NCBI GenBank assembly: GCA_049287005.1
Contig: JBAQEZ010000003.1
Coordinates: forward strand, 95,493 to 159,492
DNA: 64,000 nucleotides
DNA from: Candidatus Moraniibacteriota bacterium
Lineage (GTDB): Bacteria; Patescibacteriota; Minisyncoccia; Moranbacterales; UBA1568
Direction of reading: 5' to 3'
A model generated the notes under the pieces. The model made no database searches. It was not told the origin of the DNA and saw nothing but the letters and a program-made list of their open reading frames with translations. Both the position numbers and the translations under genes were made by a program. Every line of letters starts with the position of its first letter. Positions within the stretch are counted from its first letter, which is position 1. This document shows, one piece after another, positions 1 to 12,338 of the stretch.

Positions 1-1078
1 CGTTCGATCGTTTTTGATCTTTTCGTTGTATTCCTTGAAGTGTCTTTTTAATTCCTCTAGCACTTTCGGATCATAAATTATGCTCATCAGAGGTAATGAA
101 ATTTGGTTTAATCGCGGCTCGATGTCGGGGTTGCTGAGTTCCGGTCGTAATTTGTGTTTACCCTTCTCTTTGAAACGGAACATGAGGAGTTTGTTCCTGA
201 GTAACAACGCCTCTCTTTTGAAATCATCGGAGATGTTGGTCGCAATATCCTCTCGCTTGGTTATCAGACTCATGTCCTCGGTTATCATTCGGCTTTCAAG
301 AGCAGGATCTTTGTAGAGTTCCCGTGTCGCAATCAACTTCGGACCGAATACATTGAATGATTTCGCATCATAGCTTTTTTTGTTGTTCGCCTCGCTCCTG
401 AGAACAGGAACATCCTTCATGAATCCCATATTGAGGATTTTCACGATGTCCGCTGTTGTCGTAGACATCTCGAAATCCGCCTCATCCAGCGTGAGCGTTC
501 CCCTGAAGTCTTCCAGTATCCTAAATATGGGTGATATTGTCGTTGCTCCAGCGGTAAAAATCGGCCGATAGCAGACCGAGCCTATAACCTGCAGAAACCG
601 TGATTTTCCTGTACCGTAATCACCGAGAGCACGCAGATACGGAAGCTCGTTGAAGTCGTCATGTATCCAGGTGAACATGGCGTAGTAGCTCGCCACATCC
701 TCGAAGAAAGGAGAAACAGCAAGATACTTCCGCATGAAAGCCTTTATCTGCTTGGCGAGGTCTTCGCGTGAAACATATTCGCCGACTGCCGATGGGAACA
801 ACACGACTCTGTTTCGAAGTAGGTTCTTATTCGGCGAATGAGGAATATATGTTATCCCGTTGTGCTCAAACATCTTCTCGATCTTTACTTCTCCGCTTGA
901 ACAGACTGCAAAGCTCGTCTCGGATTTTTCGGCATCGTAAAGCATTTCAACTAATGTCCCGTCGTTTAGAGCCAAAAAAGCAATCTCAGTCGGCTTCGGG
1001 GAGGTGCTTTTTTCTGGTGTGTCTTTTTTCTCCAATTCCTTTTTTAATGTTTCTAATTTGATGTGTTCTCTGGATTCC
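1..1078 (-). CDS. P-loop NTPase (Walker A GDYGTGKSRFLQ), putative replication ATPase/helicase of mobile element; partial, 3' end beyond window start
   Basis: Manual reverse-complement translation from ATG at 1078 gives an uninterrupted >350-aa frame down to position 1 (MESREHIKLETLKK...GDYGTGKSRFLQVIGSV...). It is absent from the ORF track because no stop lies inside the window. It starts 5 nt downstream of the zinc-finger gene stop. Confidence 0.6.
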
Positions 1079-1083
1079 ATAGG

Positions 1084-1698
1084 TTAAATGAGCATCTTTA
1101 CTGCCTCAGTGAACCTGACTCCGTAAAGATGCATGGTAAAAGTTATTACGTCGCCTCCCTCATGACATCCGAAGCAGTGAAATGTATTGCTATCGGTGAA
1201 GAAATAACATGAAGGAGTCTTTTCGTTGTGGAACGGGCAAAGGGCTACGAAGTTCTTTCCCGAAGCCTTCAGTTCAAGTTTGTCTCGAGCGAGATCGCAA
1301 ATCGGACGAACCCTGGCAGCCGCAATGAGTTCCTGCATGTCTATCCATCGTCGAGAATTACTTTCTTTTGGACTGCTTATAATTGCAAGCTGTCTTTTGA
1401 GACGAAAGAGATGATTTTCGGCGGTGATTAACTTCGGTATGCTTAGTTTTTCGATAAAGACCTCGTAGATGTCGTGATCTTTTTCGGGTATAGAGGCGAG
1501 TTGTTCCTGTATTTGCGCTTTCAGGCAGTCACACCTCTCTTGCTGCTCGTTGATCTTTTCCTGTAGCGTTTCCTTGTCTATTGGAAACACTTCGAGAAGC
1601 TCTCGATCGTTCAGTTTCGGCAATGATTTTCTCCACTCCCTCTCCCAATCAAGCGAAGCGAAAAAGAGTTCTTCATCATCCGAAAAGTCTTGTTTCAT
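1084..1698 (-). CDS. DnaG-type CHC2 zinc-finger domain protein (primase zinc finger located at the C-terminus)
   Basis: The C-terminal CPFHNEKTPSCYF...FHCFGCHEGGDVITF matches the canonical DnaG CHC2 zinc-finger consensus. The N-terminal 150 aa are charged/coiled-coil-like. Confidence 0.75.
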   Translation of the reverse strand: MKQDFSDDEELFFASLDWEREWRKSLPKLNDRELLEVFPIDKETLQEKINEQQERCDCLKAQIQEQLASIPEKDHDIYEVFIEKLSIPKLITAENHLFRLKRQLAIISSPKESNSRRWIDMQELIAAARVRPICDLARDKLELKASGKNFVALCPFHNEKTPSCYFFTDSNTFHCFGCHEGGDVITFTMHLYGVRFTEAVKMLI

Positions 1699-1828
1699 AT
1701 TTGAATGCGCATAATAGCTTACGCTTCATATAATGACTCTTCGATTAGTCGGATGAGTAAATAAAAAACCGCTTGTTAGAGCGGTTATTATCGTTCGACC
1801 AATATTTTATTCGATTAATATTCGAATG

Positions 1829-2716
1829 CTAGATAGTTTTATCGATATATAGTGATCGGTATTGTGATGGAATATTTTTTACCAACTCAACCTTTACAGG
1901 GATTTCGTTTTTTAATACGAGAATATTCTCCTGCTTCGATTTTTGTATCAAAGTAGGTTTTCTCAAGCCGTTGGTTTTCATGTATTCTTTTAGGCGACTT
2001 CTTTTGAATAATCCATTATTAATACAGTCCTGTAGATTTTTATCGAAATCAACTCTCGTTCCAGGTGCATTCACTATATAGGCGATAGAGTGGAGTTTTT
2101 TTATATAAGTATCCTCACCCTTGGCATTTTTGACTTCAAAGCGTATGGGTGATTCGTATCTTCCATCATACACAAGAAATATCACGTCGTTTGGTTGTAG
2201 CGTTTCAGCAACCAGACTTAAAGACTTCAATTCCTTCTCTTGGGTGCTTGTTTTGGTTTTAGGAATCATATCCATCCGAGCATCAACAAGGTGCTTTAAA
2301 AACAGAAAGTCAGCGGCTTCCGAATTGAATTTAATCGCGAGTTCGTAATCGCCGTAATATGTGACAGATTTCAGTATCCCAAAATATTCATGAAACATTC
2401 CAAGCGCATTCATAATATCTTCCCTACTGATACTCTCGGGGAAAGCATGAAATGGGAGGTTAAACCATAATCCATGCGGATACCGCCTAAGCTCATCTTG
2501 TCGCGACTTTGTATCGAGTGTGCTAATTTCTTTCCCGGCCCTGTCCGCAAGCACCTGCATGACCTTGAAAAGTTTTTCAATCTGACTATCTGGCAAACCT
2601 GAAAATAAATGCTGAATACTATCAGGTAATCGTGGATATTCCGGATTCTTCCATGAAGAAGATAGTGGCGCTATGGCTGGATCATTCTCTTTGGATTCGA
2701 CAGTGAGGGGTGTCAT
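1829..2716 (-). CDS. hypothetical protein (island 1)
   Basis: 295-aa ORF in an AT-rich island with no recognisable motifs; divergent from the 3000..3410 gene. Confidence 0.5.
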   Translation of the reverse strand: MTPLTVESKENDPAIAPLSSSWKNPEYPRLPDSIQHLFSGLPDSQIEKLFKVMQVLADRAGKEISTLDTKSRQDELRRYPHGLWFNLPFHAFPESISREDIMNALGMFHEYFGILKSVTYYGDYELAIKFNSEAADFLFLKHLVDARMDMIPKTKTSTQEKELKSLSLVAETLQPNDVIFLVYDGRYESPIRFEVKNAKGEDTYIKKLHSIAYIVNAPGTRVDFDKNLQDCINNGLFKRSRLKEYMKTNGLRKPTLIQKSKQENILVLKNEIPVKVELVKNIPSQYRSLYIDKTI

Positions 2717-2942
2717 TTGATTTTTTTAGTTGTTTATCTTGATATTCCCGCATATTGTACAGAAAAGCAAGTTGCCTTTTGCTTTATTTGAGTGTACTTT
2801 ATATATGAACCCACAATTGAAAAATACTGAGGTAAAGCCTTTGAGGTTTTGTCCTATCACGCTTTTTAGCGGGCGGCTCGGCGCACATGATAGGACACCT
2901 CGGTGCTTCTCGATTGTGGGTTCCGTCGGGTCGTCCACTCAA

Positions 2943-2965
2943 GTGAACATGTGAACGTAGTGAAC
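2943..2965. repeat. three tandem GTGAAC hexamers (iteron-like) in a divergent intergenic region
   Basis: caaGTGAACatGTGAACgtaGTGAACttc read directly; it lies next to a local GC-rich patch (2866-2940) inside the AT-rich island. Confidence 0.4.
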
Positions 2966-2999
2966 TTCTCGGCGACTTAAATTCATTTAGGTCGCTTTT

Positions 3000-3410
3000 A
3001 TGTTTGATAAAAAGGTAGACTACAATGCTTTAAACGCTCGACAGAAAGAGATTTACAACTTTCAAAAGGCTTCTGCTATTTTTGCTGAATTTGGATATAC
3101 GACCGTTAAGCTCTCTGATGATTGGATGGGGGCTGATTTTATCGCGATCAGTTTCGACGGATCGCAGTATCTCAGGGTTCAATTGAAGGGTCGTTTAACT
3201 TTCGATAAGAAATATCAAGGGAAGGGTATATACATTTGTTTCTATGATAAGAAAAGTGAGTGCTGGTACCTATATAATCATGATGAAATTTTGAAAAAAG
3301 TCATTAAATCAATTGAGAATAGTGATACATGGAATACAAACAAGCCGTATCACTATAAGTATCTCCAGTCAGAACACATGGAAATGTTAAGTTCGTGCAA
3401 AATTGGCTGA
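3000..3410 (+). CDS. hypothetical protein
   Basis: 136-aa ORF; a possible D...QxK nuclease-like motif (DFIAISFD...LRVQLKG) is weak. Confidence 0.45.
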   Translation: MFDKKVDYNALNARQKEIYNFQKASAIFAEFGYTTVKLSDDWMGADFIAISFDGSQYLRVQLKGRLTFDKKYQGKGIYICFYDKKSECWYLYNHDEILKKVIKSIENSDTWNTNKPYHYKYLQSEHMEMLSSCKIG

Positions 3411-3481
3411 AATTGTACTTTTTTGAGATTACGTCATATTTTGAGATTCGTTGGCATGTTCAAAATTTGTACACAGTAATT

Positions 3482-4066
3482 ATGAGAAAATATCTGAGGA
3501 GGTTGCAAAAGAAGATAAGGGGCATGGATACCGATGCTAAGTATGTCGCTGGGGCATACTTATTTGTTTTTATGTTCGTCGGTACAGCGGGTGTGCTCGC
3601 AGCATCTGGGTGGCATCCTGAGATAGCACCTTCGACACGAGTACGACCAGCGATGATGGAAAAAATTATACCTGCGGAAACAAAGTCGCTCTTCGATGAG
3701 AAGGAAGATGTTGTCGAGAAGCAATCCGTTTCAACTAAGAAGGCTATTCAGCCGATTGAACCGAGTAATGTTACGGATGTTACCTTGAAGACAGATCAGA
3801 AAAAAGCAGACCAAATAAAGACAGATGAATTGAAGAAGCAGCTTAAGATAGCCAAGGAAATTGAGAGGCAAGCGAAAGAGAGCTTCGATGAACTCAAGAA
3901 GACATTGAGCACACCGATTGCTCCTCCGCCAGCTATTAAGCCGTTCCCTGTTGCAAAAGCGCCAGAGCCAATAAAGGTGGATCTGCCGACAACCCATTAC
4001 ACGACAACTTGTTGGGATGATTTTCTTTTGGGCAAACAATGCAAGACAACGATGAGCGTTTATTGA
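3482..4066 (+). CDS. membrane-anchored charged/coiled-coil protein, hypothetical
   Basis: The ORF track frame 3395..4066 contains an N-terminal hydrophobic anchor (YVAGAYLFVFMFVGTAGVLAASG) followed by a K/E-rich region. The likely start is ATG 3482 or 3524 (the latter preceded by AAGGGG). Confidence 0.5.
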   Translation: MRKYLRRLQKKIRGMDTDAKYVAGAYLFVFMFVGTAGVLAASGWHPEIAPSTRVRPAMMEKIIPAETKSLFDEKEDVVEKQSVSTKKAIQPIEPSNVTDVTLKTDQKKADQIKTDELKKQLKIAKEIERQAKESFDELKKTLSTPIAPPPAIKPFPVAKAPEPIKVDLPTTHYTTTCWDDFLLGKQCKTTMSVY

Positions 4067-4120
4067 TGAAATGCTTTATTTAAAACAAAATTAGTGTTTA
4101 GACTCAATTTTCTTTACGCC

Positions 4121-4150
4121 AAACCCTCTCATCTAGAGGGTTTTTTGTTT
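4121..4150 (+). terminator. rho-independent terminator
   Basis: aaaCCCTCTcatcTAGAGGGttttttg: a GC hairpin plus T-run downstream of the 4066 stop. Confidence 0.6.
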
Positions 4151-4171
4151 CTACATAATAAAGTGCCTGCA

Positions 4172-4315
4172 ATAAAAGGCTTTATCTGAAACAAAGATAG
4201 GTGTTTGCTCATACTTTTTCAATTTAGATGTCTGCTTATTGTGTAGAGACAGATTTTCTAATCAATGTATCAAAAAAGGCTTTAAATAAAGCAAATCTAT
4301 GTGTTTGCTCAAATA
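4172..4315 (+). repeat. two short copies (A 4172-4215, B 4272-4315) of the island repeat family: hairpin aaaaGGCTTTAaaTAAAGC plus ATGTGTTTGCTCA
   Basis: Direct sequence comparison; copy B is followed by a sigma70-like promoter TTGCTC-16nt-TATAAT (4305-4332). Confidence 0.6.
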
Positions 4316-4409
4316 TTTTTAAAAAGTATAATTTCAAGTGATTGATCTTTTATGCTATTGCAAGAGCCTTTCTTTTATCCCTTGGACTCACAAAACACCC
4401 CCAGTCACA

Positions 4410-4557
4410 CAGAAAGATAAAAAACATAAAGATATATGGCCGGTATGTCGAAGTGTGCTCTAGGGATGAAATGGGCTTCGGAGCCATGTTAATAATAATG
4501 TATAAACAAAAAAAGGTTTTAAATAAAGCCAATTGATATGTTTGCTTAACTTTTTAG
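4410..4557 (+). repeat. long copy C (~150 bp) of the island repeat family
   Basis: About 75% identical to 5961-6105 (cagaaaNNaaaaNcataaagatatatNgccNgta...gggatgaaat...aaaGGTTTTAaaTAAAGCCaattgatatgtttgcttaa). Confidence 0.65.
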
Positions 4558-4590
4558 ATAAAAACAAGACCGCCTTTCAGCGGTCTTGTA
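4553..4590 (-). terminator. rho-independent terminator for the XRE-ImmA operon (minus strand)
   Basis: ACAAGACCGCctttcaGCGGTCTTGT is a 10-bp stem. On the minus strand it is followed by TTTTTATCT. Confidence 0.5.
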
Positions 4591-4899
4591 ATGGAAGTGT
4601 CTTGCTATTTTCGGAGCCGTTCACATTCCTTGCAGAGAGGTTTTCCGCCATTGCCCTGACGGAGATTCTCTCGCTCGATGTTGTTCCCGGTGTTACATTC
4701 CGTATTATCATGATGTACGGACTGTTTCACTGAGTGCCACGGTGATTTACGCATATGCGTGATGTGTGGGGTTGATTAGGTGGGCGTCAGCATGATACAT
4801 TTGATATGCAATATTTTTGTATTAGCTGGCTTTTAAGAGAACGACGCCGAGTTCTTTAAGAGAGAACTCCTCAAATTTAAACGCCCAAAGAAACCGCTA

Positions 4900-5448
4900 T
4901 TACTGGCGGCTTTTTTTGACCCTCAAATCTTTCTCTATACCAAGTTCGTTCAGACGATAGCCTAAAGCTTCTCCAGAAACTTTGAAAATGGAAGTCATTC
5001 GGACTTTCCGCAGATCAATGTCTAAATTGCTGAAAGCCTCCCACTTTTCTTTAAAGACTTCTCTGGGCATAAGGAATGCTGCTGCGAATCGGTTACAGAA
5101 CCGCTCCTCCTCGTTCATTGTGTATAGATTTCCATCGAAAAAGCCGAATGCAATCCCAGAGTTACGGATGACATGACCAACTTCATGACAGAGCGTGAAA
5201 TTCTGCCTTCGCGGATAGTCGGACTCTTTGATCCAAATTCTGTACTCGTCAGTAGCGGGATCGTAATATGTGAGACCAGAGATTTTCACAAAATGTTCTC
5301 CATCACCATGTCCAATCCAGATTTTTATCCCGAATTGATCTTCAACCCATTTGACCAATTCATGTATGGATGGCATAGGAGAGCCAATACTGTGAAAGAT
5401 GGCATTTGCTGTTCTTTCTGCCTCGATGTTTATTTTTGGGTAATTCAT
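4900..5448 (-). CDS. ImmA/IrrE-family zinc metallopeptidase
   Basis: HEVGHVI (HExxH) motif; 182 aa; immediately downstream of, and co-oriented with, the XRE repressor gene, the classic prophage/ICE immunity pair. Confidence 0.8.
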   Translation of the reverse strand: MNYPKINIEAERTANAIFHSIGSPMPSIHELVKWVEDQFGIKIWIGHGDGEHFVKISGLTYYDPATDEYRIWIKESDYPRRQNFTLCHEVGHVIRNSGIAFGFFDGNLYTMNEEERFCNRFAAAFLMPREVFKEKWEAFSNLDIDLRKVRMTSIFKVSGEALGYRLNELGIEKDLRVKKSRQ

Positions 5449-5452
5449 GATG

Positions 5453-5833
5453 TTACTTTTTGAGGTGATCGATGAGGTTCTCTATGATGCGGACAGCCTC
5501 CTTATTATCCATGCCATATTGCTGTCTGAGATAGACGCTTAAGGATGGAGTTGAGGGTTGGTCGCTTATAACCTTGAGAAGGCCTAAAATCTCTTTGACT
5601 TTGACGCTGAACCCGTCAGCTAGTTTGATAAGCGTATCAAGAGAGATATTTTTTTCATCAAACTCCCCATTTTCTATCTTTGAAATGAAACTCTTGGAGA
5701 GGGAGGCTCTCTCGGCTAATTCGTCCAGTGTGAAGCCCCTGTTTTTTCGGAGTTCTGATACGATTTCGCTCAATATCATATGTAGTTTATTTAAGTACAA
5801 TGAGAGTCTATCATAGGAAACTTTTTTGTGCAA
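5453..5833 (-). CDS. XRE-family helix-turn-helix transcriptional regulator
   Basis: HTH FTLDELAERASLSKSFISKIENGE; an alternative start at Met19 (5779) is more typical. Confidence 0.8.
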   Translation of the reverse strand: MHKKVSYDRLSLYLNKLHMILSEIVSELRKNRGFTLDELAERASLSKSFISKIENGEFDEKNISLDTLIKLADGFSVKVKEILGLLKVISDQPSTPSLSVYLRQQYGMDNKEAVRIIENLIDHLKK

Positions 5834-5960
5834 GGGGCGGTGAGCAAGGTACTCATTGAAGGAAAAAACTTCGGCTCTAACTGCACCCGCCCAAATATTT
5901 TTTTAGAGAGTGTTTTTGAATGATTTCATTCCTCGGATTCACAGAATACTCTCAGTTATA

Positions 5961-6105
5961 CAGAAATCCAAAAAGCATAAAGATATATAGCCAGTACGCC
6001 GAGGTGTCCTCTGGGGATGAAATATGGATTTGTAAGCTTGTCGTGTAATAACTCACAAACAAAAGGCTTCATTTGAAGCCAATTCATATGTTTGCTTAAT
6101 TATTT
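5961..6105 (+). repeat. long copy D of the island repeat family, in the divergent XRE / DUF4238-gene regulatory region
   Basis: See copy C. The hairpin here is GCTTCAttTGAAGC, versus GCTTTAaaTAAAGC in copies A and B: compensatory changes that preserve the palindrome. Confidence 0.65.
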
Positions 6106-6187
6106 TTCATTTGATTGCGGTCGGCGATTTTTTTGTGAATTGCGTATATACTGAAAGTGTTTCTTTTTCAGGCTTTCACCAAAAATT

Positions 6188-8659
6188 ATGTCCATAACAC
6201 ATCGTAATCATTATGTCCCTGAATGGTATCAAAAACGTTTTATATTACCAGGACAAAACAAACTACATTATTTGGATCTTTGCCCAGATAAAAAAATACT
6301 TGCTGATGGAAGAATTGTAACAATGAATTCTCATTTCTTCTGGGCGCCAAGTCAGTGCTTTTACAAAGAAGATTTGTATACGACATCCCTTTTTGGAAAT
6401 GAAAATGATGAAATCGAGAAATATCTTTTTGGGAGTATAGATATAACTGGAGCTAAGGCACTCCGTGCCATTGTAAGTAATGATATACAAAAACTCCACG
6501 ATTCGTTTAGTAGCTTTTTTGAATATTTAGATGCTCAGAAATTGAGAACTCCAAAGGGATTGGGTTGGATAAATGTTAATTATCCCAGGCTTACTCAGCT
6601 TCAATTGATGCTTGAGATGCAACAAATCAGACAACTGCACTGCACTATGTGGGTTGAGGCGGTGCGCGAAATAGTTTCTGCTGAAGATTCAGAGATTAAA
6701 TTTATAATTACTGATCATCCTGTTACTATTTATAATCCCGGATGCTCTCCAGGCACAAAATATTGCACATATCCAAATGAACCGTCTATAGCCCTAAAAG
6801 GAACACAGACCGTTTTCCCGCTGGATCTAAACCATTGTTTGATTTTAACCAATCTAGAATATGCGCAGGAGCCATTTTTAAAAGATTTACTTTCTAATAG
6901 GACAAATGCGCGGAATTTTGGACAAACAACTTCTCGTATTGATAATTGGATTAGAACCAGAAAGCTCAAGGATTTAGAGGTTAAAAAAATCAATTATATC
7001 TTAAAGTCACGAGCATCTAAGCATATCGCTGCTTCCAAGAAAGAGTGGCTTTATCCTGAAAAGGATATTAAAGAAACTTGGCAAAAAATAGGGCAAGTAC
7101 TTTTACCTCCAAAAAATGAGTTACACCATTTTGGAGGTGAGATGTACATGGGATACAAAGACGGAACAGTTCATTATCAGGATGCATTTGGGCGTACTAC
7201 TGGAGATACGTCGTATTTAAAAAAGCCAATCCCGAAAGGTAAAATTGGTAATAATGACCCGTGCGTTTGTGGAAGCGGAAGGAAATATAAAAAATGTTGT
7301 TTAGGAAAGAAGCCTGAAGATATGCCGGATACTACCGAGTACAGTATTCGAGAAAGAAATATTATATTCTCAAAAATTCTAGAAGACATACTGGGTCTAT
7401 CTAAAGGAAAAACCTGGGAAGATGTTCGAAAAGAATTAAGTGATGAGCAAGTAAAAAAAATCTACGAAGCTTTTCAGGGTTTATGGCCTAAAGATACAAA
7501 TATTATTAATTTATTGCCACACCCAGATGAAAGAATATCGAGAGCGCTGTATGCTGGTTTAATAGATCCTAGAACTGCAGCGAGAGATATAATCAGCTAT
7601 ACGCCCTATTTCGACGAAATTCTGGTCATAAATCCCTTTATGAATCCCGCCTATATAAGCCCGGAGTACAATCCGATAAATTTTCCGGGTCAATATAAAC
7701 AAGAGGTGTTAAAAAATGTTTTATTTTTCTTACAGCTGATGCCTTTTATAGAAATAGGCGCTGTGAATATAATTCCTGATCCCTGTTCTACTAATTATCG
7801 ATTACAAAGACAGATCTGGGATTTGGCGGAGTCACGTCATAAAAGATATAAATTAGAAGGATTTGACTTTGACCTCGAATCTGACGAGTCAATAAAAAAA
7901 ATATTTGAAGATGATTTTAAAAGGGGGATGACTGGTTTTTCTGACGAACATCTAATACAAAGCATAAAAAAAAGATTGCCAAAGCTACCTGATAGAGAAT
8001 TAGGAGAATTATTGGATTATATAAAAAAAGAGCGATTGAAAGACCCCTTGGCATTACTTCAGCCCATGGAAGACAATGAAAAAAGTGGACAGATGACTGC
8101 TACTCATGTAACCCCAAATCTTGAGCTTGGTTTCTTTATTGCGCAGCTTACGGGCTCGTTTATTTATACAGATAGTAAAGTGAGATGGCAAGAAATAACA
8201 AGATCAACTAAAGCCAGTGAGGATGAGAATAAAATGCCTTGGGAGTTTTTAGCAAAAACAATTAATGATATTGATTTCAATCTTGAAATTGACCCTTTAT
8301 TTAATTTTAAAATAAGAAAAACTGGGAAATTAGGATTAATAAGGGGTGCTGTAAGAAGATTGTGCACTACAATAAAAAATGAGCAAGATGCTCCTAAAAT
8401 TAAAATTTTAAACAAATCCTTATCTGACGAAATTATATTAGCGCACCAGAAGTCAGAAAAAGAGTTAGAAGCAATCAGGAAAGACAATGAGAAGCAGAAG
8501 GATGAAATTAGCTTTACATTTAAAAGTAAGATGACCTGTTTGATTTCTGTGGATGACTTTTTTTCATTAATACCAGTTCAAAGACTTGTTTTATCGTATG
8601 GGGCGAAACCTCAAAAAATAGTGCCAATAGCTGTATTCATTGAACATAATGATTGCTAG
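6188..8659 (+). CDS. large DUF4238-like protein with SEC-C metal-binding motif and ~450-aa C-terminal extension (candidate phage-defence/abortive-infection protein)
   Basis: N-terminus HRNHYVPEWYQKRFILPG resembles the DUF4238 start (HYVPxFYLxxF; family recall from memory). CVCGSGRKYKKCC matches the SEC-C motif exactly. 823 aa, inside an AT-rich island next to the ImmA/XRE pair. Confidence 0.55.
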   Translation: MSITHRNHYVPEWYQKRFILPGQNKLHYLDLCPDKKILADGRIVTMNSHFFWAPSQCFYKEDLYTTSLFGNENDEIEKYLFGSIDITGAKALRAIVSNDIQKLHDSFSSFFEYLDAQKLRTPKGLGWINVNYPRLTQLQLMLEMQQIRQLHCTMWVEAVREIVSAEDSEIKFIITDHPVTIYNPGCSPGTKYCTYPNEPSIALKGTQTVFPLDLNHCLILTNLEYAQEPFLKDLLSNRTNARNFGQTTSRIDNWIRTRKLKDLEVKKINYILKSRASKHIAASKKEWLYPEKDIKETWQKIGQVLLPPKNELHHFGGEMYMGYKDGTVHYQDAFGRTTGDTSYLKKPIPKGKIGNNDPCVCGSGRKYKKCCLGKKPEDMPDTTEYSIRERNIIFSKILEDILGLSKGKTWEDVRKELSDEQVKKIYEAFQGLWPKDTNIINLLPHPDERISRALYAGLIDPRTAARDIISYTPYFDEILVINPFMNPAYISPEYNPINFPGQYKQEVLKNVLFFLQLMPFIEIGAVNIIPDPCSTNYRLQRQIWDLAESRHKRYKLEGFDFDLESDESIKKIFEDDFKRGMTGFSDEHLIQSIKKRLPKLPDRELGELLDYIKKERLKDPLALLQPMEDNEKSGQMTATHVTPNLELGFFIAQLTGSFIYTDSKVRWQEITRSTKASEDENKMPWEFLAKTINDIDFNLEIDPLFNFKIRKTGKLGLIRGAVRRLCTTIKNEQDAPKIKILNKSLSDEIILAHQKSEKELEAIRKDNEKQKDEISFTFKSKMTCLISVDDFFSLIPVQRLVLSYGAKPQKIVPIAVFIEHNDC

Positions 8660-8749
8660 TTTGTAAAAATTCAGCTCTAACTGCATGATTATCCGTTCAA
8701 AAGAACTAATGGATTGTTAAAAAATATTAAACTGATATACACTTCATAA

Positions 8750-9463
8750 GTGAGATCCATAAAAGACGGGCTATACAATTACTTATCCCAACACAGCACG
8801 AGACGATTTAAAATACTCGTGGTATTTTTGTTTTTCTCCCTGGTTGGATTAATTACATTATTTGCTAATAAGGTATTTTCTGACCAAAATTTATACTATT
8901 ATACCTTTAGTACTATAGTCCAGGGGTTTCTAGCATTGGTTGCATTCCTTGGGGCAGTGGTCATTTATAAATTGCAGATTATTGAGTCTGATTTGGAAAA
9001 AATATCTAATAATCTATACTTCTTTATAAAAGTCTTCCCTCCATTCTCTGAATCAGTTGAAGGTGTTCATTCTTGGGCCGAAATTATGAATGAGGGGGGA
9101 AGAATCATAAATACACCCGAGAATAAAACAGGTATGTACTCTGATTCTATACAGAGAGCTGAGATTTATTGGAATAAACTGCGCAAATTGTCTAGTGATC
9201 GAGGAGATATTAGAACGAAAATGGTTGATTTTAGCTTATTCTCATTTCTGAATGTGGGGTTTTCTCTAATTTCAATGCCTATTACGAGACTATTTGTAGA
9301 GCAAAAGTTGTTTTATTTTGGAGAGGTTTTTATTATTATTGGTATTTTAATTAGCTGTTTTTCTCTTTTTCTAGCATTTGGGATTATCCGTGCCGTTTTG
9401 GGGTACTCTTTTTCAGCTAAGTTTGAGGCCGCCGCTTTTAAGCTAAACGCTAGAATCCATTAA
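8750..9463 (+). CDS. polytopic membrane protein, hypothetical (possible partner of DUF4238 protein)
   Basis: GTG start directly after an in-frame stop; at least 5 hydrophobic helices. Confidence 0.5.
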   Translation: MRSIKDGLYNYLSQHSTRRFKILVVFLFFSLVGLITLFANKVFSDQNLYYYTFSTIVQGFLALVAFLGAVVIYKLQIIESDLEKISNNLYFFIKVFPPFSESVEGVHSWAEIMNEGGRIINTPENKTGMYSDSIQRAEIYWNKLRKLSSDRGDIRTKMVDFSLFSFLNVGFSLISMPITRLFVEQKLFYFGEVFIIIGILISCFSLFLAFGIIRAVLGYSFSAKFEAAAFKLNARIH

Positions 9464-9679
9464 AGTTATTTATTTTCTAGTTGTTGCTCTTTTTATCTAA
9501 GTCACAACAGATAAGCACTTCAATAAGGAGTTGATTTAGTGATACTAGTCAGAAATTCAGTTCTAACCGTATTAACTACCCAGCTCAGATAAAAACAAGG
9601 CTCATCCGCCAGTCGGCAGAGAGCCTTATTTGTTATCCTCACAGTGGACGGTCAAACCGATGAATGTTATGGTAATGGT

Positions 9680-10291
9680 ATGAAAAATATCAAGGCGATC
9701 GTTTTTGATCTGAACGGGGTTTTTATCACGAGCCCCAAGTTGAGCCACAGATTTCATCAGGATTTCGGAGTTGATGAAGAGGCTTTTTTGCTCGCGCTGA
9801 AAGATGTCATGGCTCAAGTGCGGCAGCCTCATGCCGGCGGCGCCTATTCCTATTGGCAGCCTTATCTGGAACAGTGGGGCGTGCCATTCGATGAGGAATC
9901 ATTGCTTGATTATTGGTTTGCGGCGGAAAAGGAAAACCCTGCCATGATAAAGATCTCAGAAGCGTTGAAAGCGAAGGGCATTTCCCTATTCATTCTTTCC
10001 AATAATCTGAGAGAGCGATCCGGATATTACCAGGAGCGCTTTTCTTTTTTGGGCGCTCTCTTCCAGAAAATCTATTATTCATGGCAAACAGGATTCATCA
10101 AACCGGACAGACGGGCATACGAACTCATTTTGCGAGAAAATAATCTGCGGCCCGAAGAATGTATATACTTCGACGACTCGCAAACCAATATCGCCGTCGC
10201 TCAAGGCATCGGGATAGAGAGCTATCTCTTCCAGGGCAGCGACGATGTGCAAGAAAAACTGGCAGAACTTTTGACATGTCGGATCAGTTAA
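9680..10291 (+). CDS. HAD-superfamily hydrolase
   Basis: Motif I VFDLNGV (DxDx[TV]); ILSNN and FDDS motifs. The ORF frame opens at GTG 9644 and the first ATG is 9680. Confidence 0.7.
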   Translation: MKNIKAIVFDLNGVFITSPKLSHRFHQDFGVDEEAFLLALKDVMAQVRQPHAGGAYSYWQPYLEQWGVPFDEESLLDYWFAAEKENPAMIKISEALKAKGISLFILSNNLRERSGYYQERFSFLGALFQKIYYSWQTGFIKPDRRAYELILRENNLRPEECIYFDDSQTNIAVAQGIGIESYLFQGSDDVQEKLAELLTCRIS

Positions 10292-10397
10292 CCTCAGCAG
10301 CACCTCGTTTGGTATTAAAAAAAAGCCCACTGGATAGTGTTGCTACCAGTGGGATATCAGTTTATCCGTTCTTTCTGCCTTGCTTGTTAGCGATGAG

Positions 10398-10937
10398 TCA
10401 GCGGGAAGCGCTCGCCATCTGCCTGAGGTTCTCAGCGGCGCGCTCTGCTACCGTGAAGTCGGCATATTTCCGCGGCGTAATGATGCCATACATTCCGTCC
10501 CCGAGCATGACGTTAAGCGGAATGGCGAAAGCAGGAGGCCCATCGCCGCTTGGTTGCGCGGTGGCGTAGTGGGTCGCCGTGACGTACAGGATCCACTCTT
10601 CGGGGTTGCCGCGAGCGATGACCGCTTCTTGATTGGGCCAGTCCTTGGCCTGTCCGAGCGAGATCACCTGAAAGCGTTCCGGGTGATTCACCCAGATGTA
10701 AGCATCAGACGCAATCGGCACGAGGAAAAGAAACTGCGCCGCAGCGAATGTTTTCGCGACAATGCTCCCATATTCTTCTGTGAGGCCTGGCAAGCAAGCG
10801 GCCTCACCAAACCATTGCACGCAGATATAAGGCTTCTCGTTTTCCGTGAGCCGTTCCACACTGATGGTGGGAACCAGTACGGTGGGTTTTTTGGTTCTAC
10901 TCTCGGGCTGAAACGCCCGTGGGTCGATGCTTTGCAT
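10398..10937 (-). CDS. hypothetical protein
   Basis: 179-aa ORF convergent with the HAD gene. Preferred over the overlapping plus-strand ORF 10380..11207, whose translation is Arg-rich and low-complexity and which overlaps the VKOR gene. Confidence 0.5.
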   Translation of the reverse strand: MQSIDPRAFQPESRTKKPTVLVPTISVERLTENEKPYICVQWFGEAACLPGLTEEYGSIVAKTFAAAQFLFLVPIASDAYIWVNHPERFQVISLGQAKDWPNQEAVIARGNPEEWILYVTATHYATAQPSGDGPPAFAIPLNVMLGDGMYGIITPRKYADFTVAERAAENLRQMASASR

Positions 10938-11085
10938 GGGTACTCTCCTTTGTTAAGGTCACTGTCCAGGTGGCGAACGAAATGTTGCGGACTTATATTT
11001 ATAGCATTTTTATCTGAGCATGTCCATGACTGGCGCAAGGATCGCAAAAGAGATATTATAGGAGCATCATTAAAACAGTATCTTT

Positions 11086-11532
11086 ATGAAAAAATACTCC
11101 CTTATCATGTGGCTTGCGGCGGTTGCGATAGTCAATGCGACGTATTTGAGTTACAAAGCCTATGTGTATCATTTTGTGGACCCGAACAAATTATCGACCA
11201 TATGTGATTTTTCACGCTTTAGTTCCTGCACGGACGTGCTGCGCCACCCCCTGTCTCTCGTTTTCGGTATCCCCTTCCCCTGGATAGCCCTCGTGGTATA
11301 CCCGATTTTGCTGATAGTGGCCTGGTACGGTTATCGGAAGGCTTCTCTTCTGCCGGCGAAAATCATCGTGGTGCTTTCCGGTCTCGGTATGTGTTTCAAC
11401 GGCTTTATCATCTATCGGGAGATTCGCTACATTCATGCTTACTGCATCCTGTGTCTGCTTTGTACGGCAATCATCGTTTCCATCTTTGTCTTGTCCCTCC
11501 AGCTCGTGCGAGACGCCAAAAAAGAAGCCTGA
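11086..11532 (+). CDS. vitamin K epoxide reductase (VKOR)-family membrane protein
   Basis: Four to five TM helices with CxxC (CILC) in the last helix and a conserved loop Cys pair (ICDFSRFSSC). Confidence 0.7.
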   Translation: MKKYSLIMWLAAVAIVNATYLSYKAYVYHFVDPNKLSTICDFSRFSSCTDVLRHPLSLVFGIPFPWIALVVYPILLIVAWYGYRKASLLPAKIIVVLSGLGMCFNGFIIYREIRYIHAYCILCLLCTAIIVSIFVLSLQLVRDAKKEA

Positions 11533-11555
11533 CAGGCCATGCGGCTCGTAAAACC

Positions 11556-11588
11556 TTCCCACGTGGAACCGTTTTTTACTCGAAGGGC
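11556..11588 (+). terminator. terminator hairpin containing a near-copy of the TTCCACGTGGAA palindrome core
   Basis: aaaaCCTTCCCACGTGGAACCGtttttt: a near-palindrome plus T-run just after the VKOR stop. Confidence 0.5.
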
Positions 11589-11687
11589 GGTTTTTTGTTA
11601 TCTCTTTTGGTATTGGCTTAGATAAGGGATAAGATGAGAATTAATGCATAAAAATGCTTTATATAAGCCAAATATCTGTATCGTGCG

Positions 11688-11716
11688 ATTGACACCCTGT
11701 ACATTTTGTGCTATTA
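11688..11716 (+). promoter_or_regulatory. sigma70-like promoter for the 3D-domain gene
   Basis: TTGACA-17nt-TATTAT, followed by a ~65-nt leader containing a GGTTGGCCTG direct repeat. Confidence 0.55.
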
Positions 11717-11786
11717 TCATCGGTTGGCCTGAGAAGGTTGGCCTGTTCCCCTTACGAGGGTCGCAGCTCATCTGTAAGAGCAAACT

Positions 11787-12338
11787 ATGATATTTCGGAA
11801 AGACTTTCTTTTCGTAGCAGTAGCGATAGCGATCTTTGCCAATATGCATACCGCGCAGGCGATGGGGACTGAAATAGTGTTGCCGTCAGTGACTGCCTAT
11901 GACTTCAAAAGCGATCCTTTCTTGTTCAATTGGAACTTTATTGTCCAGAATAAGCAGATCGAAACAGCTGTTGTCGCCCCCTTGTCTTTCGAAGACAAGA
12001 CGCTCAACCGTTGGAAACAGAAGCAGGCGCATCTGTGGGCCGCCCTTCCCAAAGCGAAATTCACCATCAACGCTTCTGCTTATACGGCCGCGGCCGATGA
12101 ATGTGGTAAAAGCGATGGGATCACTGCCTCAGGACTGAAGGTCGCTGAGAAGCGTACCCTGGCCTGTCCTCCGGCTTTCCCGTTCGGTACCAAGATCAGT
12201 ATCGAAGGTGTCGGCGAACTGCGCTGCGAAGACCGCGGCGGAGCGATCAAGGGCAATCACTTCGATATCTATGTTCAAACAAAAACAGAAGCCTTCGCGT
12301 TCGGTCGCCGCAACTTGGTTGCGGAAGTGATAGAGTAA
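11787..12338 (+). CDS. secreted 3D-domain protein (MltA/YuiC-like cell-wall hydrolase domain)
   Basis: Signal peptide; the C-terminal ...GTKISIEGVGELRCEDRGGAIKGNHFDIYV matches the 3D-domain signature. Confidence 0.7.
   Translation: MIFRKDFLFVAVAIAIFANMHTAQAMGTEIVLPSVTAYDFKSDPFLFNWNFIVQNKQIETAVVAPLSFEDKTLNRWKQKQAHLWAALPKAKFTINASAYTAAADECGKSDGITASGLKVAEKRTLACPPAFPFGTKISIEGVGELRCEDRGGAIKGNHFDIYVQTKTEAFAFGRRNLVAEVIE

What the first reader, a model, noticed from the sequence alone, without database searches (positions are those of the whole stretch)
6188..9560. An 823-aa DUF4238-like/SEC-C protein plus membrane protein, next to the ImmA/XRE pair: candidate anti-phage module
The protein starts with the DUF4238-type HYVPEWYQKRF N-terminus and carries a perfect SEC-C motif (CVCGSGRKYKKCC). 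Its ~450-aa C-terminal extension is unrecognised.

A 5-TM protein is encoded immediately downstream. Both genes sit in an AT-rich island between an XRE/ImmA immunity pair and the island boundary.

Single-gene DUF4238 proteins have been reported as anti-phage factors in satellite hotspots (recall from the literature). This long SEC-C-containing version with a membrane partner is not a described architecture as far as I know.
Basis: partly seen in the sequence, partly recalled or inferred. Interest (0 to 1): 0.7.

Follow-up and report, generated by a model that had tools for sequence, protein, structure and literature searches.

The report
Long DUF4238 defence-type gene, no partner
The 823-residue protein is a real and widespread but uncharacterised long form of the DUF4238 candidate anti-phage family; it works as a stand-alone cargo gene on an integrated mobile element, and the neighbouring membrane protein and XRE/ImmA pair are not its conserved partners.

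Summary
ORF 6188-8659 encodes an 823-aa protein with a Pfam DUF4238 hit (E 3e-13) and a SEC-C zinc motif (E 8e-8). A 237-aa membrane protein follows it, and an XRE/ImmA pair lies upstream on the other strand.

- **Not a rare architecture.** More than 2,400 homologues were found. Full-length ~820-aa relatives, 45-83% identical, occur in many phyla and on plasmids.
- **A fusion of two modules.** One is a DUF4238 domain, which also exists alone at ~375 aa. The other is a SEC-C motif plus a ~450-aa domain, which also exists alone at ~480 aa or behind other N-domains such as PNP_UDP_1.
- **No conserved partners.** None of 13 homologue loci checked by blastp, and neither of two annotated plasmid loci, carries the membrane protein or an XRE/ImmA relative. 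At DNA level the two genes are separate cassettes, each found alone elsewhere at about 82% identity. In this window each is bracketed by a 19-nt direct repeat.
- **Context fits defence or mobile cargo.** Neighbours include type I R-M, SIR2, PNP-TPR, integrases, an IS insertion and conjugative plasmids.

This is a new variant of a known kind, of moderate interest.

The parts
6188..8659 (+). Gene for the 823-aa long-form DUF4238 protein (DUF4238 domain + SEC-C motif + conserved C-terminal domain)
   Evidence: The ORF is listed. Pfam gives DUF4238 and SEC-C. It is 100% identical to an NCBI Moraniibacteriota protein and has more than 2,400 homologues. The AlphaFold model has pLDDT 84.9 and pTM 0.83.
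6188..7222 (+). N-terminal DUF4238 domain (aa 1-345)
   Evidence: Pfam E 2e-14 for this segment alone. Stand-alone ~375-aa forms are 46-49% identical over residues 1-336. Residues shared with the validated Rst_DUF4238 protein include H8, Y14, K16, F18, R120-T121, D176-x-P178-V179 and N269.
7253..7303 (+). SEC-C zinc-binding motif (aa 356-372, CVCGSGRKYKKCC)
   Evidence: PF02810, E 7.6e-8. The PDB sequence search matches only the SecA and YchJ metal-binding motifs. C359, C361, C370 and C371 are invariant in 43 homologues.
7313..8656 (+). C-terminal ~450-aa domain (aa 376-823): an alpha/beta (Rossmann-like) core plus helical insertions, with no Pfam family
8750..9463 (+). Separate cargo cassette: a 237-aa (NCBI 214-aa, start 8819) multi-pass membrane protein of unknown function
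   Evidence: No family in four libraries. Only 31 homologues. Those inspected lie elsewhere without a DUF4238 gene. Window 8712-9474 is 82.6% identical to L011, and the match covers this gene only.
5867..5885 (+). Copy 1 of a 19-nt direct repeat (AACTTCGGCTCTAACTGCA), between the XRE gene and the DUF4238 cassette
   Evidence: Three copies in 64 kb, all on the + strand, against 0.02 expected.
8667..8685 (+). Copy 2 of the 19-nt repeat, 8 nt after the DUF4238 stop codon and before the membrane-protein cassette
9553..9571 (+). Copy 3 of the 19-nt repeat, after the membrane-protein gene, at the point where GC rises (the right end of the island)
   Evidence: Repeat positions. GC step.
5453..5833 (-). 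XRE-family HTH repressor. The true start is probably internal, because the HTH begins at about residue 27. It is most likely the regulatory switch of the integrated element.
   Evidence: HTH_3, E 2e-13. PADLOC capH, E 5e-13. No relative lies beside any DUF4238 homologue.
4900..5448 (-). ImmA/IrrE-type M78 metallopeptidase (182 aa), the partner of the XRE protein
   Evidence: Peptidase_M78, E 1e-18. The match to the capP profile covers only positions 32-154 of 242, so the GAF part is absent (CapP domain structure from PMC13228613).
1..1698 (-). Replication-type genes of the same element: a CHC2 primase zinc-finger protein (1084-1698) and a P-loop (GTGKS) protein that runs off the window start (1-1083)
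   Evidence: Zn_ribbon_DnaG, E 2e-24. PHROG primase families. Translation of 1-1083. The P-loop protein is 29% identical to a protein of Virus Rctr41k, and the annotated features under that match include an xerD integrase-like protein.
5924..6112 (+). Non-coding ~190-nt unit upstream of the DUF4238 gene. It is duplicated at 4373-4562 (76-79% identical) and ends in a GGCTTC-N4-GAAGCC hairpin.
   Evidence: Similarity of the DUF4238 cassette to L014 starts at 6068, inside the hairpin.

Best explanation
Gene 6188-8659 is a self-contained, single-gene accessory module, most likely an anti-phage (abortive-infection type) protein of the DUF4238 family in a long form.

**What is shown.**
- It is a fusion of two modules that also exist separately. 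One is the DUF4238 domain (aa 1-345). The other is a SEC-C zinc knuckle plus a ~450-aa alpha/beta-and-helical domain (aa 346-823).
- It travels by horizontal transfer as a unit of one gene.
- In this window it is one of two independent cargo cassettes, each bracketed by a 19-nt direct repeat. They sit at the right end of an integrated mobile element in a Moraniibacteriota genome. That element carries its own XRE/ImmA switch and primase-type replication genes.

**What is inferred.**
- The SEC-C plus C-terminal module acts as the sensing or regulatory part. It is the part that is kept while the N-terminal domain is exchanged, for example for a PNP_UDP_1 nucleosidase-type domain.
- The DUF4238 domain is the enzymatic effector that stops phage growth or host metabolism when triggered. 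It has many invariant polar residues: H8, D74, E77, K118, R120, E143, Q145, E157, E161, K171 and D176, with H151 and H177 nearly invariant.
- Neither the substrate nor the trigger is known.
For: **Family.**
- Pfam DUF4238 and SEC-C both score above their gathering cut-offs.
- A single DUF4238 protein from a P2 hotspot protects E. coli against T7 (PMC9122126). Its sequence shares colinear motifs with this N-domain.

**Modularity.**
- Short ~375-aa forms contain the DUF4238 domain only.
- Stand-alone ~480-aa proteins have SEC-C at residues ~5-29 followed by the C-terminal domain.
- P0270 joins PNP_UDP_1 to the same C-terminal domain. Five further proteins carry unrecognised N-domains.

**Single-gene unit.**
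- Window 6068-8680 is 82% identical to L014, and the flanks differ.
- Neighbours differ in every locus examined.

**Defence or mobile context.**
- Type I HsdR plus PDC-M48B-like genes in L001.
- A PN-superfamily effector fused to TPR in L002.
- A PDC-S25 SIR2 gene beside the short form in L008.
- A DAC-sensor protein in L004 and VirB4 in L005.
- A phage integrase in L007.
- An IS4 transposase inserted into the gene in L006.
- An IS3 element and a DUF3258 protein in Klebsiella.
- The conjugative plasmid pAsa4b.

**Foreign origin.** GC is about 0.35 against 0.45-0.55 for the flanking genome. Identity is 57% to an Omnitrophota protein and 53% to a Nitrospirae protein.

**Enzyme-like conservation along the whole length**.

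**A possible precedent for the second module.** Rugutis, a validated lactococcal single-protein system, is an N-terminal SEC-C motif followed by a fold with no PDB match (PMC11381338; PMC13064643).
Against: - No experiment exists for any long-form member.
- Identity to the validated Rst_DUF4238 protein is only 21%. hhalign gives 25% probability over 43 columns.
- PADLOC gives no defence-model hit beyond the SEC-C tail. However, PADLOC appears to hold no DUF4238 model at all, because the short form also scores nothing.
- There is no tblastn match in 50,697 phage records.
- Some homologue loci have partly housekeeping-looking neighbours, for example L009 and L015.
- The assignment of effector and sensor roles rests only on domain-swap logic. 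E. coli systems that combine TIR with DUF4238, where TIR is the required NADase, could argue for the opposite roles (PMC11350192).
- Fold searches give no functional clue.
Confidence: 0.55

Rival explanations
1. One reading: the 823-aa protein and the downstream membrane protein form a two-gene defence module, for example a cytoplasmic sensor plus a membrane effector.
For: The two genes are on the same strand and 90 nt apart. No terminator-like site was found between them. Both lie in the AT-rich segment.
Against: - None of 13 homologue loci has a relative of the membrane protein. That includes the 83%, 74% and 72% identical relatives L014, L017 and L015. The two annotated plasmid loci show none either.
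- None of the 3 membrane-protein loci has a DUF4238 gene, including the 86% identical one.
- DNA similarity to L014 ends at 8680, and similarity to L011 begins at 8712.
- A 19-nt repeat separates the two genes.
- The promoter-like stretch 8712-8749 travels with the membrane gene in L011.
Confidence: 0.05
2. The XRE/ImmA pair is a CapH/CapP-type regulator of the DUF4238 gene. The repressor would sit on the divergent promoter, and the peptidase would cleave it after DNA damage or infection, so that the defence gene is induced.
For: - The best PADLOC hits are capP (4e-18) and capH (5e-13).
- The pair is transcribed divergently from the DUF4238 gene across a 354-nt intergenic region.
- CapH/CapP pairs are reported next to diverse immune operons (PMC13228613).
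Against: - ImmA is 182 aa and matches only positions 32-154 of the 242-position capP profile. It therefore lacks the GAF domain that helps form CapP's ssDNA-binding groove.
- No homologue locus has an HTH or M78 neighbour.
- The transferable cassette shared with L014 starts only 120 nt upstream of the ATG.
- A repeat junction at 5867 lies between the pair and the gene.
- The pair sits next to primase-type replication genes, as ImmR/ImmA-type switches of integrative elements and prophages do (element biology from general knowledge).
Confidence: 0.15
3. The gene is not an immune gene. It would be another kind of mobile-element cargo: a toxin or addiction function, an anti-defence or inter-element competition factor, or a metabolic or regulatory enzyme whose SEC-C motif docks it on ribosomes or the Sec machinery.
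For: - No function has been shown for the long form.
- The SEC-C motifs solved so far belong to SecA and YchJ-type proteins.
- The C-terminal core weakly resembles nucleotide-binding HUP/USP-type folds.
- Several loci are plasmids or conjugative elements rather than classical defence islands.
Against: - The only experimental datum for the family is phage resistance.
- Several loci place the gene directly beside R-M, SIR2 or PNP-TPR genes.
- The distribution is patchy across phyla, and one copy is inactivated by an IS element. Both are typical of defence genes. They are also compatible with this rival.
Confidence: 0.25

Closest known systems
Rst_DUF4238 (single-protein anti-T7 system from the E. 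coli P2-prophage hotspot; Rousset et al. 2022, PMC9122126)
   Same: - It belongs to the same Pfam family, PF14022.
- It has colinear conserved motifs: an N-terminal R-x-H-[HY]-[FV] followed by Y-x-K-x-F, then R-T-P, E-M-Q, [ST]-D-x-P-V and N269.
- It is a single-gene unit carried as cargo at the edge of an integrated element.
   Different: - Rst_DUF4238 is 309 aa and consists of the DUF4238 domain only. This protein is 823 aa and adds a SEC-C zinc motif and a ~450-aa conserved domain.
- Identity is 21%.
- There is no tblastn match to any phage record.
- The host is a CPR bacterium, not an enterobacterium.
- No phenotype has been tested.
Rugutis (lactococcal plasmid-encoded single-protein Abi-like system, 359 aa; PMC11381338, PMC13064643)
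   Same: The stand-alone relatives of this protein's second half have the architecture reported for Rugutis. That is an N-terminal SEC-C motif followed by a confidently predicted fold with no significant PDB match.
   Different: - Homology is untested, because I could not obtain the Rugutis sequence.
- Rugutis is ~120 aa shorter than the ~480-aa stand-alone proteins.
- In this protein the module is fused behind a DUF4238 domain.
CapH/CapP and ImmR/ImmA (HTH repressor plus M78 peptidase switches)
   Same: The upstream pair has an XRE HTH and an M78 peptidase. The genes are adjacent and co-oriented, and they face the cargo gene divergently.
   Different: The peptidase has no GAF domain. There is no conserved association with DUF4238 genes. 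The pair fits better as the switch of the integrated element than as a dedicated regulator of the defence gene.
Cargo or defence hotspots at the ends of prophages, satellites and islands, with cassettes flanked by repeats of the attachment site (tandem accretion)
   Same: Two unrelated single-gene cassettes sit between the element's regulatory module and the island end. Each is bracketed by the same 19-nt direct repeat, and the last copy is at the GC boundary.
   Different: No integrase is visible, because the element runs off the window start. The repeat was not found flanking cassettes elsewhere: the metagenome scan gave 110 single matches, which I estimate to be about chance level. Recombination at the repeat is therefore inferred, not shown.

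Membership tests
DUF4238 (Pfam PF14022) | Score above the Pfam gathering threshold | tested here: met
   50.1 bits against a cut-off of 27, E 3.3e-13. The N-terminal 341 aa alone score 54.1 bits.
DUF4238 (Pfam PF14022) | Conserved sequence motifs shared with the experimentally validated member (E. coli TA007 protein) | tested here: met
   H8, Y14, K16, F18, D62, E77, R120, T121, M144, C152, F172, D176, P178, V179, P196, P199, K204, P211, N215, E224 and N269 are invariant across long forms, short forms and Rst_DUF4238. The pairwise signal is weak: hhalign E 7.6e-4 at 25% probability, and two colinear HMM blocks.
Rst_DUF4238 defence system (DefenseFinder definition) | Hit to the DefenseFinder Rst_DUF4238 profile | not testable with these tools
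   That profile is not in any available library. PADLOC 2.0 gave no DUF4238-type hit even for the short form in L008, so a PADLOC negative carries no information.
Rst_DUF4238 defence system (DefenseFinder definition) | Single-domain protein of about 300 aa | tested here: not met
   This protein is 823 aa and has two extra conserved modules.
Rst_DUF4238 defence system (DefenseFinder definition) | Protects against phage | not testable with these tools
   This needs an experiment.
SEC-C motif (Pfam PF02810) | C-x-C ... C-C zinc-binding pattern, scoring above the gathering threshold | tested here: met
   32.5 bits against a cut-off of 20.4. C359, C361, C370 and C371 are invariant. The motif matches the SecA and YchJ motifs in the PDB.
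   The genes co-occur in none of the 13 DUF4238 loci and none of the 3 membrane-protein loci compared by blastp. The two annotated plasmid loci show no such neighbour either.
CapH/CapP regulator pair | HTH repressor plus M78 zinc peptidase encoded together | tested here: met
CapH/CapP regulator pair | CapP has a C-terminal GAF domain that, together with the peptidase domain, forms the ssDNA-binding groove | tested here: not met
   The protein is 182 aa and its match stops at position 154 of the 242-position capP profile. Domain description from PMC13228613.
CapH/CapP regulator pair | Recurrent association with the regulated immune gene | tested here: not met
   No HTH or M78 neighbour at any homologue locus.
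Rugutis | N-terminal SEC-C motif followed by a domain with no PDB relative | tested here: met
Rugutis | Sequence or fold homology to the Rugutis protein | not tested
   The sequence is not held in the paper's text, and no supplement is available.

The most novel reading that the evidence does not exclude
The long form would be a widespread, uncharacterised single-polypeptide immune protein that joins two modules, each able to act as a stand-alone anti-phage protein. One is Rst_DUF4238-type. The other is a Rugutis-like SEC-C protein. Both have folds with no solved relative and therefore possibly new biochemistry. In this CPR genome the gene, together with an unrelated membrane-protein gene, would have been captured by site-specific recombination at a 19-nt repeat. 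That would reveal a cassette-accreting cargo hotspot on a Patescibacteria mobile element.
Probability: 0.25. Interest if true: 0.65.

Novelty: new variant of a known kind. Interest (0 to 1): 0.45.

Why it matters
- DUF4238 is a listed anti-phage system whose mechanism is still unknown. A 2024 survey could not place it in any known domain family.
- The long form gives a concrete handle on that problem. The DUF4238 domain and the SEC-C plus C-terminal module are separable, and the C-terminal module is recombined with other N-terminal domains such as PNP_UDP_1. This predicts which half senses and which half acts.
- The analysis supplies a short list of invariant residues to mutate.
- It raises a testable link to Rugutis, a SEC-C defence protein reported to be triggered by phage terminase.
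- It is also one of few candidate defence genes seen on a mobile element of a CPR (Moraniibacteriota) bacterium.
- The negative result matters for annotation. The membrane protein and the XRE/ImmA pair should not be bundled with this gene into one "system".

Tried and rejected
- **PADLOC on the 823-aa protein.** Only the SEC-C tail matched E2-type models. The library appears to lack a DUF4238 model, since the short form also scores nothing.
- **tblastn of the N-domain against 50,697 phage records.** No match.
- **PDB sequence search with the 43-sequence profile.** Only SEC-C motifs matched.
- **Foldseek of the full model against the PDB.** Best E was 1.1.
- **Look-up of the window's own contig, to see the left end of the element.** The protein is not on record.
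- **Metagenome scan for the 19-nt repeat.** 110 contigs had one match each, which I estimate to be about the chance expectation, and none had flanking pairs.
- **Rfam over 1-12000.** Nothing reached a gathering score. A "Histone3" stem-loop hit at 6060-6106 is just the hairpin.
- **RNA folding of the duplicated ~100-nt unit, both strands and both copies.** z-scores were 0.1 to -1.0, so there is no sign of a structured RNA.
- **Obtaining the Rugutis sequence.** It is not in the text and no supplement is held. tblastn of a stand-alone relative against plasmids showed no Lactococcus hit among the listed rows.
- **A split DUF4238 gene next to stand-alone SEC-C plus C-domain genes.** Not seen in L019 or L131-L133.


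Full report
**1. Observation**

Pfam puts the 823-aa protein in DUF4238 (PF14022, E 3.3e-13, 50 bits against a cut-off of 27). It also finds a SEC-C motif at residues 356-372 (E 7.6e-8). The upstream pair is HTH_3 and Peptidase_M78. The 237-aa protein has no family in Pfam, PADLOC, NCBIfam or PHROGs.

The segment 6000-9500 has GC 0.32-0.37, and the DNA to its right has 0.45-0.56. The 823-aa protein is identical to an NCBI protein of a Candidatus Moraniibacteriota MAG on a 766,823-bp contig.

The membrane protein has 4-5 predicted TM helices rather than a firm five. A Kyte-Doolittle scan gave three strong segments, and I read a weaker fourth by eye. NCBI starts the gene at the GTG at 8819.

**2. 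The long architecture is common**

The homologue search returned more than 2,400 hits. The best 120 are nearly all 800-840 aa, cover 99-100% of the query and are 45-83% identical. Where the source names them, they come from Smithellaceae, Omnitrophota, Desulfaltia, Gammaproteobacteria, Acidobacteria and SAR86.

One genome per species gave eight loci in Omnitrophota, Nitrospirae and proteobacteria. Eleven plasmids carry 40-45% identical copies covering at least 80% of the query, in Klebsiella, Aeromonas, Vibrio, Sinorhizobium and others. The gene under the match is annotated as a "DUF4238 domain-containing protein" in nearly all of them.

In an alignment of 43 full-length members, conservation runs along the whole protein. 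The four SEC-C cysteines and many polar residues in both halves are invariant. The architecture is therefore not rare. It is merely unstudied: I found no paper on it, and a 2024 survey still lists Rst_DUF4238 as unclassifiable.

**3. It is a fusion of two independent modules**

Microbulbifer (L007) and Marinobacter (L008) encode ~375-aa proteins that match residues 1-336 at 46-49% identity and are DUF4238 only.

A profile of residues 376-823, searched against 1.84 billion representative proteins, found 934 relatives. They fall into three kinds:
- the ~800-830-aa fusion with DUF4238;
- ~470-495-aa proteins that begin with a SEC-C motif at residues ~5-29 and continue with the C-terminal domain;
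- proteins with other N-terminal domains, including P0270 (PNP_UDP_1, a phosphorylase-superfamily domain) and five with N-domains unknown to Pfam.

**4. Relation to the validated defence protein**

Rousset et al. showed that a single DUF4238 protein from a P2 hotspot gives strong resistance to T7 (PMC9122126). I took its 309-aa sequence from their Table S2.

It aligns with the N-domain here at 21% identity. The motifs are colinear: the N-terminal R-x-H-[HY]-[FV]...Y-x-K-x-F, then R-T-P, E-M-Q, [ST]-D-x-P-V, and others. The pairwise statistics are weak (hhalign 25% probability). Membership therefore rests on the Pfam model and the shared motifs.

**5. The membrane protein and the XRE/ImmA pair are not partners**

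I compared 13 loci with a homologue of the 823-aa protein against the window's proteins, including relatives 83%, 74% and 72% identical. None encodes a relative of the membrane protein, the XRE protein or ImmA. Two annotated plasmid loci show no such neighbour either.

The membrane protein has only 31 homologues. Three of their loci were examined:
- the 86% identical one (L011) has no DUF4238 gene in the sequence available;
- L012 follows a Peptidase_S24 gene and a T5orf172 gene;
- L013 lies at the end of an island with a serine recombinase, RadC and a MutH-like/Dcm/Vsr set, directly before housekeeping genes.

At DNA level, window 6068-8680 matches L014 at 82% and window 8712-9474 matches L011 at 82.6%. 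In each case the match covers one gene and the flanks are unrelated.

A 19-nt motif (AAWTTCRGYTCTAACYGYA) occurs three times in the 64-kb window, always on the + strand, at 5867, 8667 and 9553. That is before the DUF4238 cassette, between the two cassettes, and at the GC step that ends the island. The expected number is 0.02. I read this as two separately acquired cassettes. Recombination at the repeat is an inference: a metagenome scan gave what I estimate to be chance-level single matches only.

**6. What the XRE/ImmA pair is**

Its best PADLOC matches are capH and capP. However, the peptidase is 182 aa and covers only positions 32-154 of the 242-position capP profile. CapP is described as a peptidase domain plus a GAF domain that together form the ssDNA-binding groove (PMC13228613).

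To the left, on the same strand, lie a CHC2 primase zinc-finger protein (1084-1698) and a P-loop protein that runs off the window (1-1083). The P-loop protein is 29% identical to a protein of Virus Rctr41k, and the annotated features under that match include an xerD integrase-like gene.

The simplest reading is an integrated element with its own ImmR/ImmA-type switch and replication genes, carrying cargo at its right end. Regulation of the cargo by that switch is possible but unsupported.

**7. Context of homologues**
- L001: directly after a type I HsdR (E 1e-230) and PDC-M48B-like genes, and before an NrS-1-type primase-polymerase.
- L002: next to a PNP_UDP_1-TPR protein that matches a PADLOC PN-superfamily effector model.
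- L004: next to a DAC protein with DACNG/DACNH sensor domains.
- L005: near VirB4.
- L006: the gene is split by an IS4 transposase.
- L007 (short form): near a phage integrase.
- L008 (short form): next to a PDC-S25 SIR2 gene (E 6e-194).
- L010: overlapped by an HNH_5 gene.
- Klebsiella plasmid: between a DUF3258 protein and an IS3 element.
- Aeromonas pAsa4b: a conjugative plasmid.
- A stand-alone SEC-C plus C-domain gene sits in a small island with a Dam methylase, an AbiEii-like gene and an MqsA-like gene.

A few loci look partly housekeeping (L009, L015).

**8. Structure**

The full-length AlphaFold model is confident (pLDDT 84.9, pTM 0.83), as is the model of residues 346-823 (pLDDT 84.8, pTM 0.87).

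The recurring alpha/beta hits align about 100-150 residues at 3.5-4.5 A. They are universal stress proteins, PPAT, NAD synthetase, PanC, TyrRS, cyclodipeptide synthases, PIN-like domains and pre-ATP-grasp domains.

The predicted beta-alpha-beta order in residues 452-700, read with the alignment, puts R452, G457, E477, D531 and E646 (invariant) and D460, R462, D476 and T661 (nearly invariant) within or next to the predicted strands, with N644 just before helix 645-655. Together this suggests a Rossmann-like core with helical insertions. That is as far as the evidence goes.

The N-domain has no recognisable relative. It carries many invariant polar residues (H8, D74, E77, K118, R120, E143, Q145, E157, E161, K171, D176, R238, D252, R258) plus the nearly invariant H151 and H177. 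This pattern looks enzymatic.

**9. Mechanism proposed**

*Shown:* a single-gene, horizontally mobile unit built from two separable modules.

*Inferred:* the SEC-C plus C-terminal module is the constant sensing or regulatory part, because it is kept while N-terminal domains are exchanged. One of those is a nucleosidase-type PNP_UDP_1 domain, a kind that scores as an effector in PADLOC. The DUF4238 domain would be the effector.

A caveat points the other way. In E. coli, DUF4238 domains accompany TIR domains whose NADase site is required for defence (PMC11350192).

A further lead is Rugutis, a validated lactococcal Abi-like protein. It is an N-terminal SEC-C motif plus a fold with no PDB match, and it is reported to be triggered by the phage terminase large subunit. 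The stand-alone relatives of the C-terminal module have that same layout. I could not obtain the Rugutis sequence, so homology is untested.

**10. Verdict**

The finding is a new variant of a known kind: a long, fused form of the DUF4238 candidate defence family, with no conserved partners. Interest is moderate (0.45).

The family is large, conserved and structurally unplaced, and the domain-swap pattern makes its mechanism testable. The specific claim of a new two-gene module does not hold, and no function has been demonstrated.

Noticed in passing
window 15881-17316 (inside ORF 15621-17507, +): There are 17 perfect copies of the 14-nt palindrome GTTCCACGTGGAAC, against 0.02 expected, and all lie inside one 628-aa membrane-protein ORF. 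They are read in frame as the recurring peptides MFHVEQ, CSTWN and VPRGT. Copies cluster with spacings of about 34-49 nt. This looks like a palindromic repeat element that has invaded a coding sequence without breaking the frame.
   Followed up: partly
window 5867-5885, 8667-8685, 9553-9571: A 19-nt direct repeat (AAWTTCRGYTCTAACYGYA) brackets both cargo cassettes and marks the island's right end. It may be an attachment or recombination site. No integrase is visible because the element runs off the window start. No informative matches were found in metagenomes.
   Followed up: partly
window 4373-4562 and 5924-6112; hairpin units also at 4159-4225 and 4259-4325: A ~190-nt non-coding unit is duplicated at 76-79% identity. 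It consists of a ~100-nt part closed by a 10-bp inverted repeat (ATTTCATYCC...GGGATGAAAT), followed by a GGCTTY-N4-RAAGCC hairpin and then ATGTTTGCT. The hairpin unit occurs four times. RNA folding gives no significant stability (z -0.5 to -1.0) and Rfam finds nothing. The function is unknown; it could be a regulatory site, a MITE-like remnant or a cassette junction.
   Followed up: partly
window 8750-9463; loci L011, L012, L013: The 237-aa membrane protein belongs to a small family of 31 hits. The three members inspected sit in variable or mobile contexts: after Peptidase_S24 and T5orf172 genes in L012, and at the very end of an R-M and recombinase island in L013. It may be an independent phage-exclusion or accessory gene.
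   Followed up: partly
window 5-20 and 9696-9711: An exact 16-nt direct repeat (CGATCGTTTTTGATCT) occurs 9,691 nt apart. One copy is inside the P-loop ORF near the window start. The other is in the 5' end of the HAD-hydrolase gene just outside the island. It is probably chance, because the left ORF continues beyond the copy, but I did not examine it further.
   Followed up: no
window 3000-3410 (+) and 3395-4066 (+): Two further small genes lie in the low-GC zone between the replication genes and ImmA. One is a 136-aa protein with a weak DUF4365 match (E 0.014). The other is a 223-aa protein with no confident family match. They may be more cargo of the same element.
   Followed up: no
locus L006 10982-12151: In a deltaproteobacterial MAG the long-form DUF4238 gene is interrupted by an IS4-family transposase (DDE_Tnp_1 plus DUF4372). 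This shows the gene is dispensable.
   Followed up: yes
locus L010 2788-3558: In one metagenome contig an HNH_5-domain gene overlaps the stop of the long-form DUF4238 gene by 8 nt, so it could be an operon partner in that lineage only. It was not seen in any other locus.
   Followed up: no
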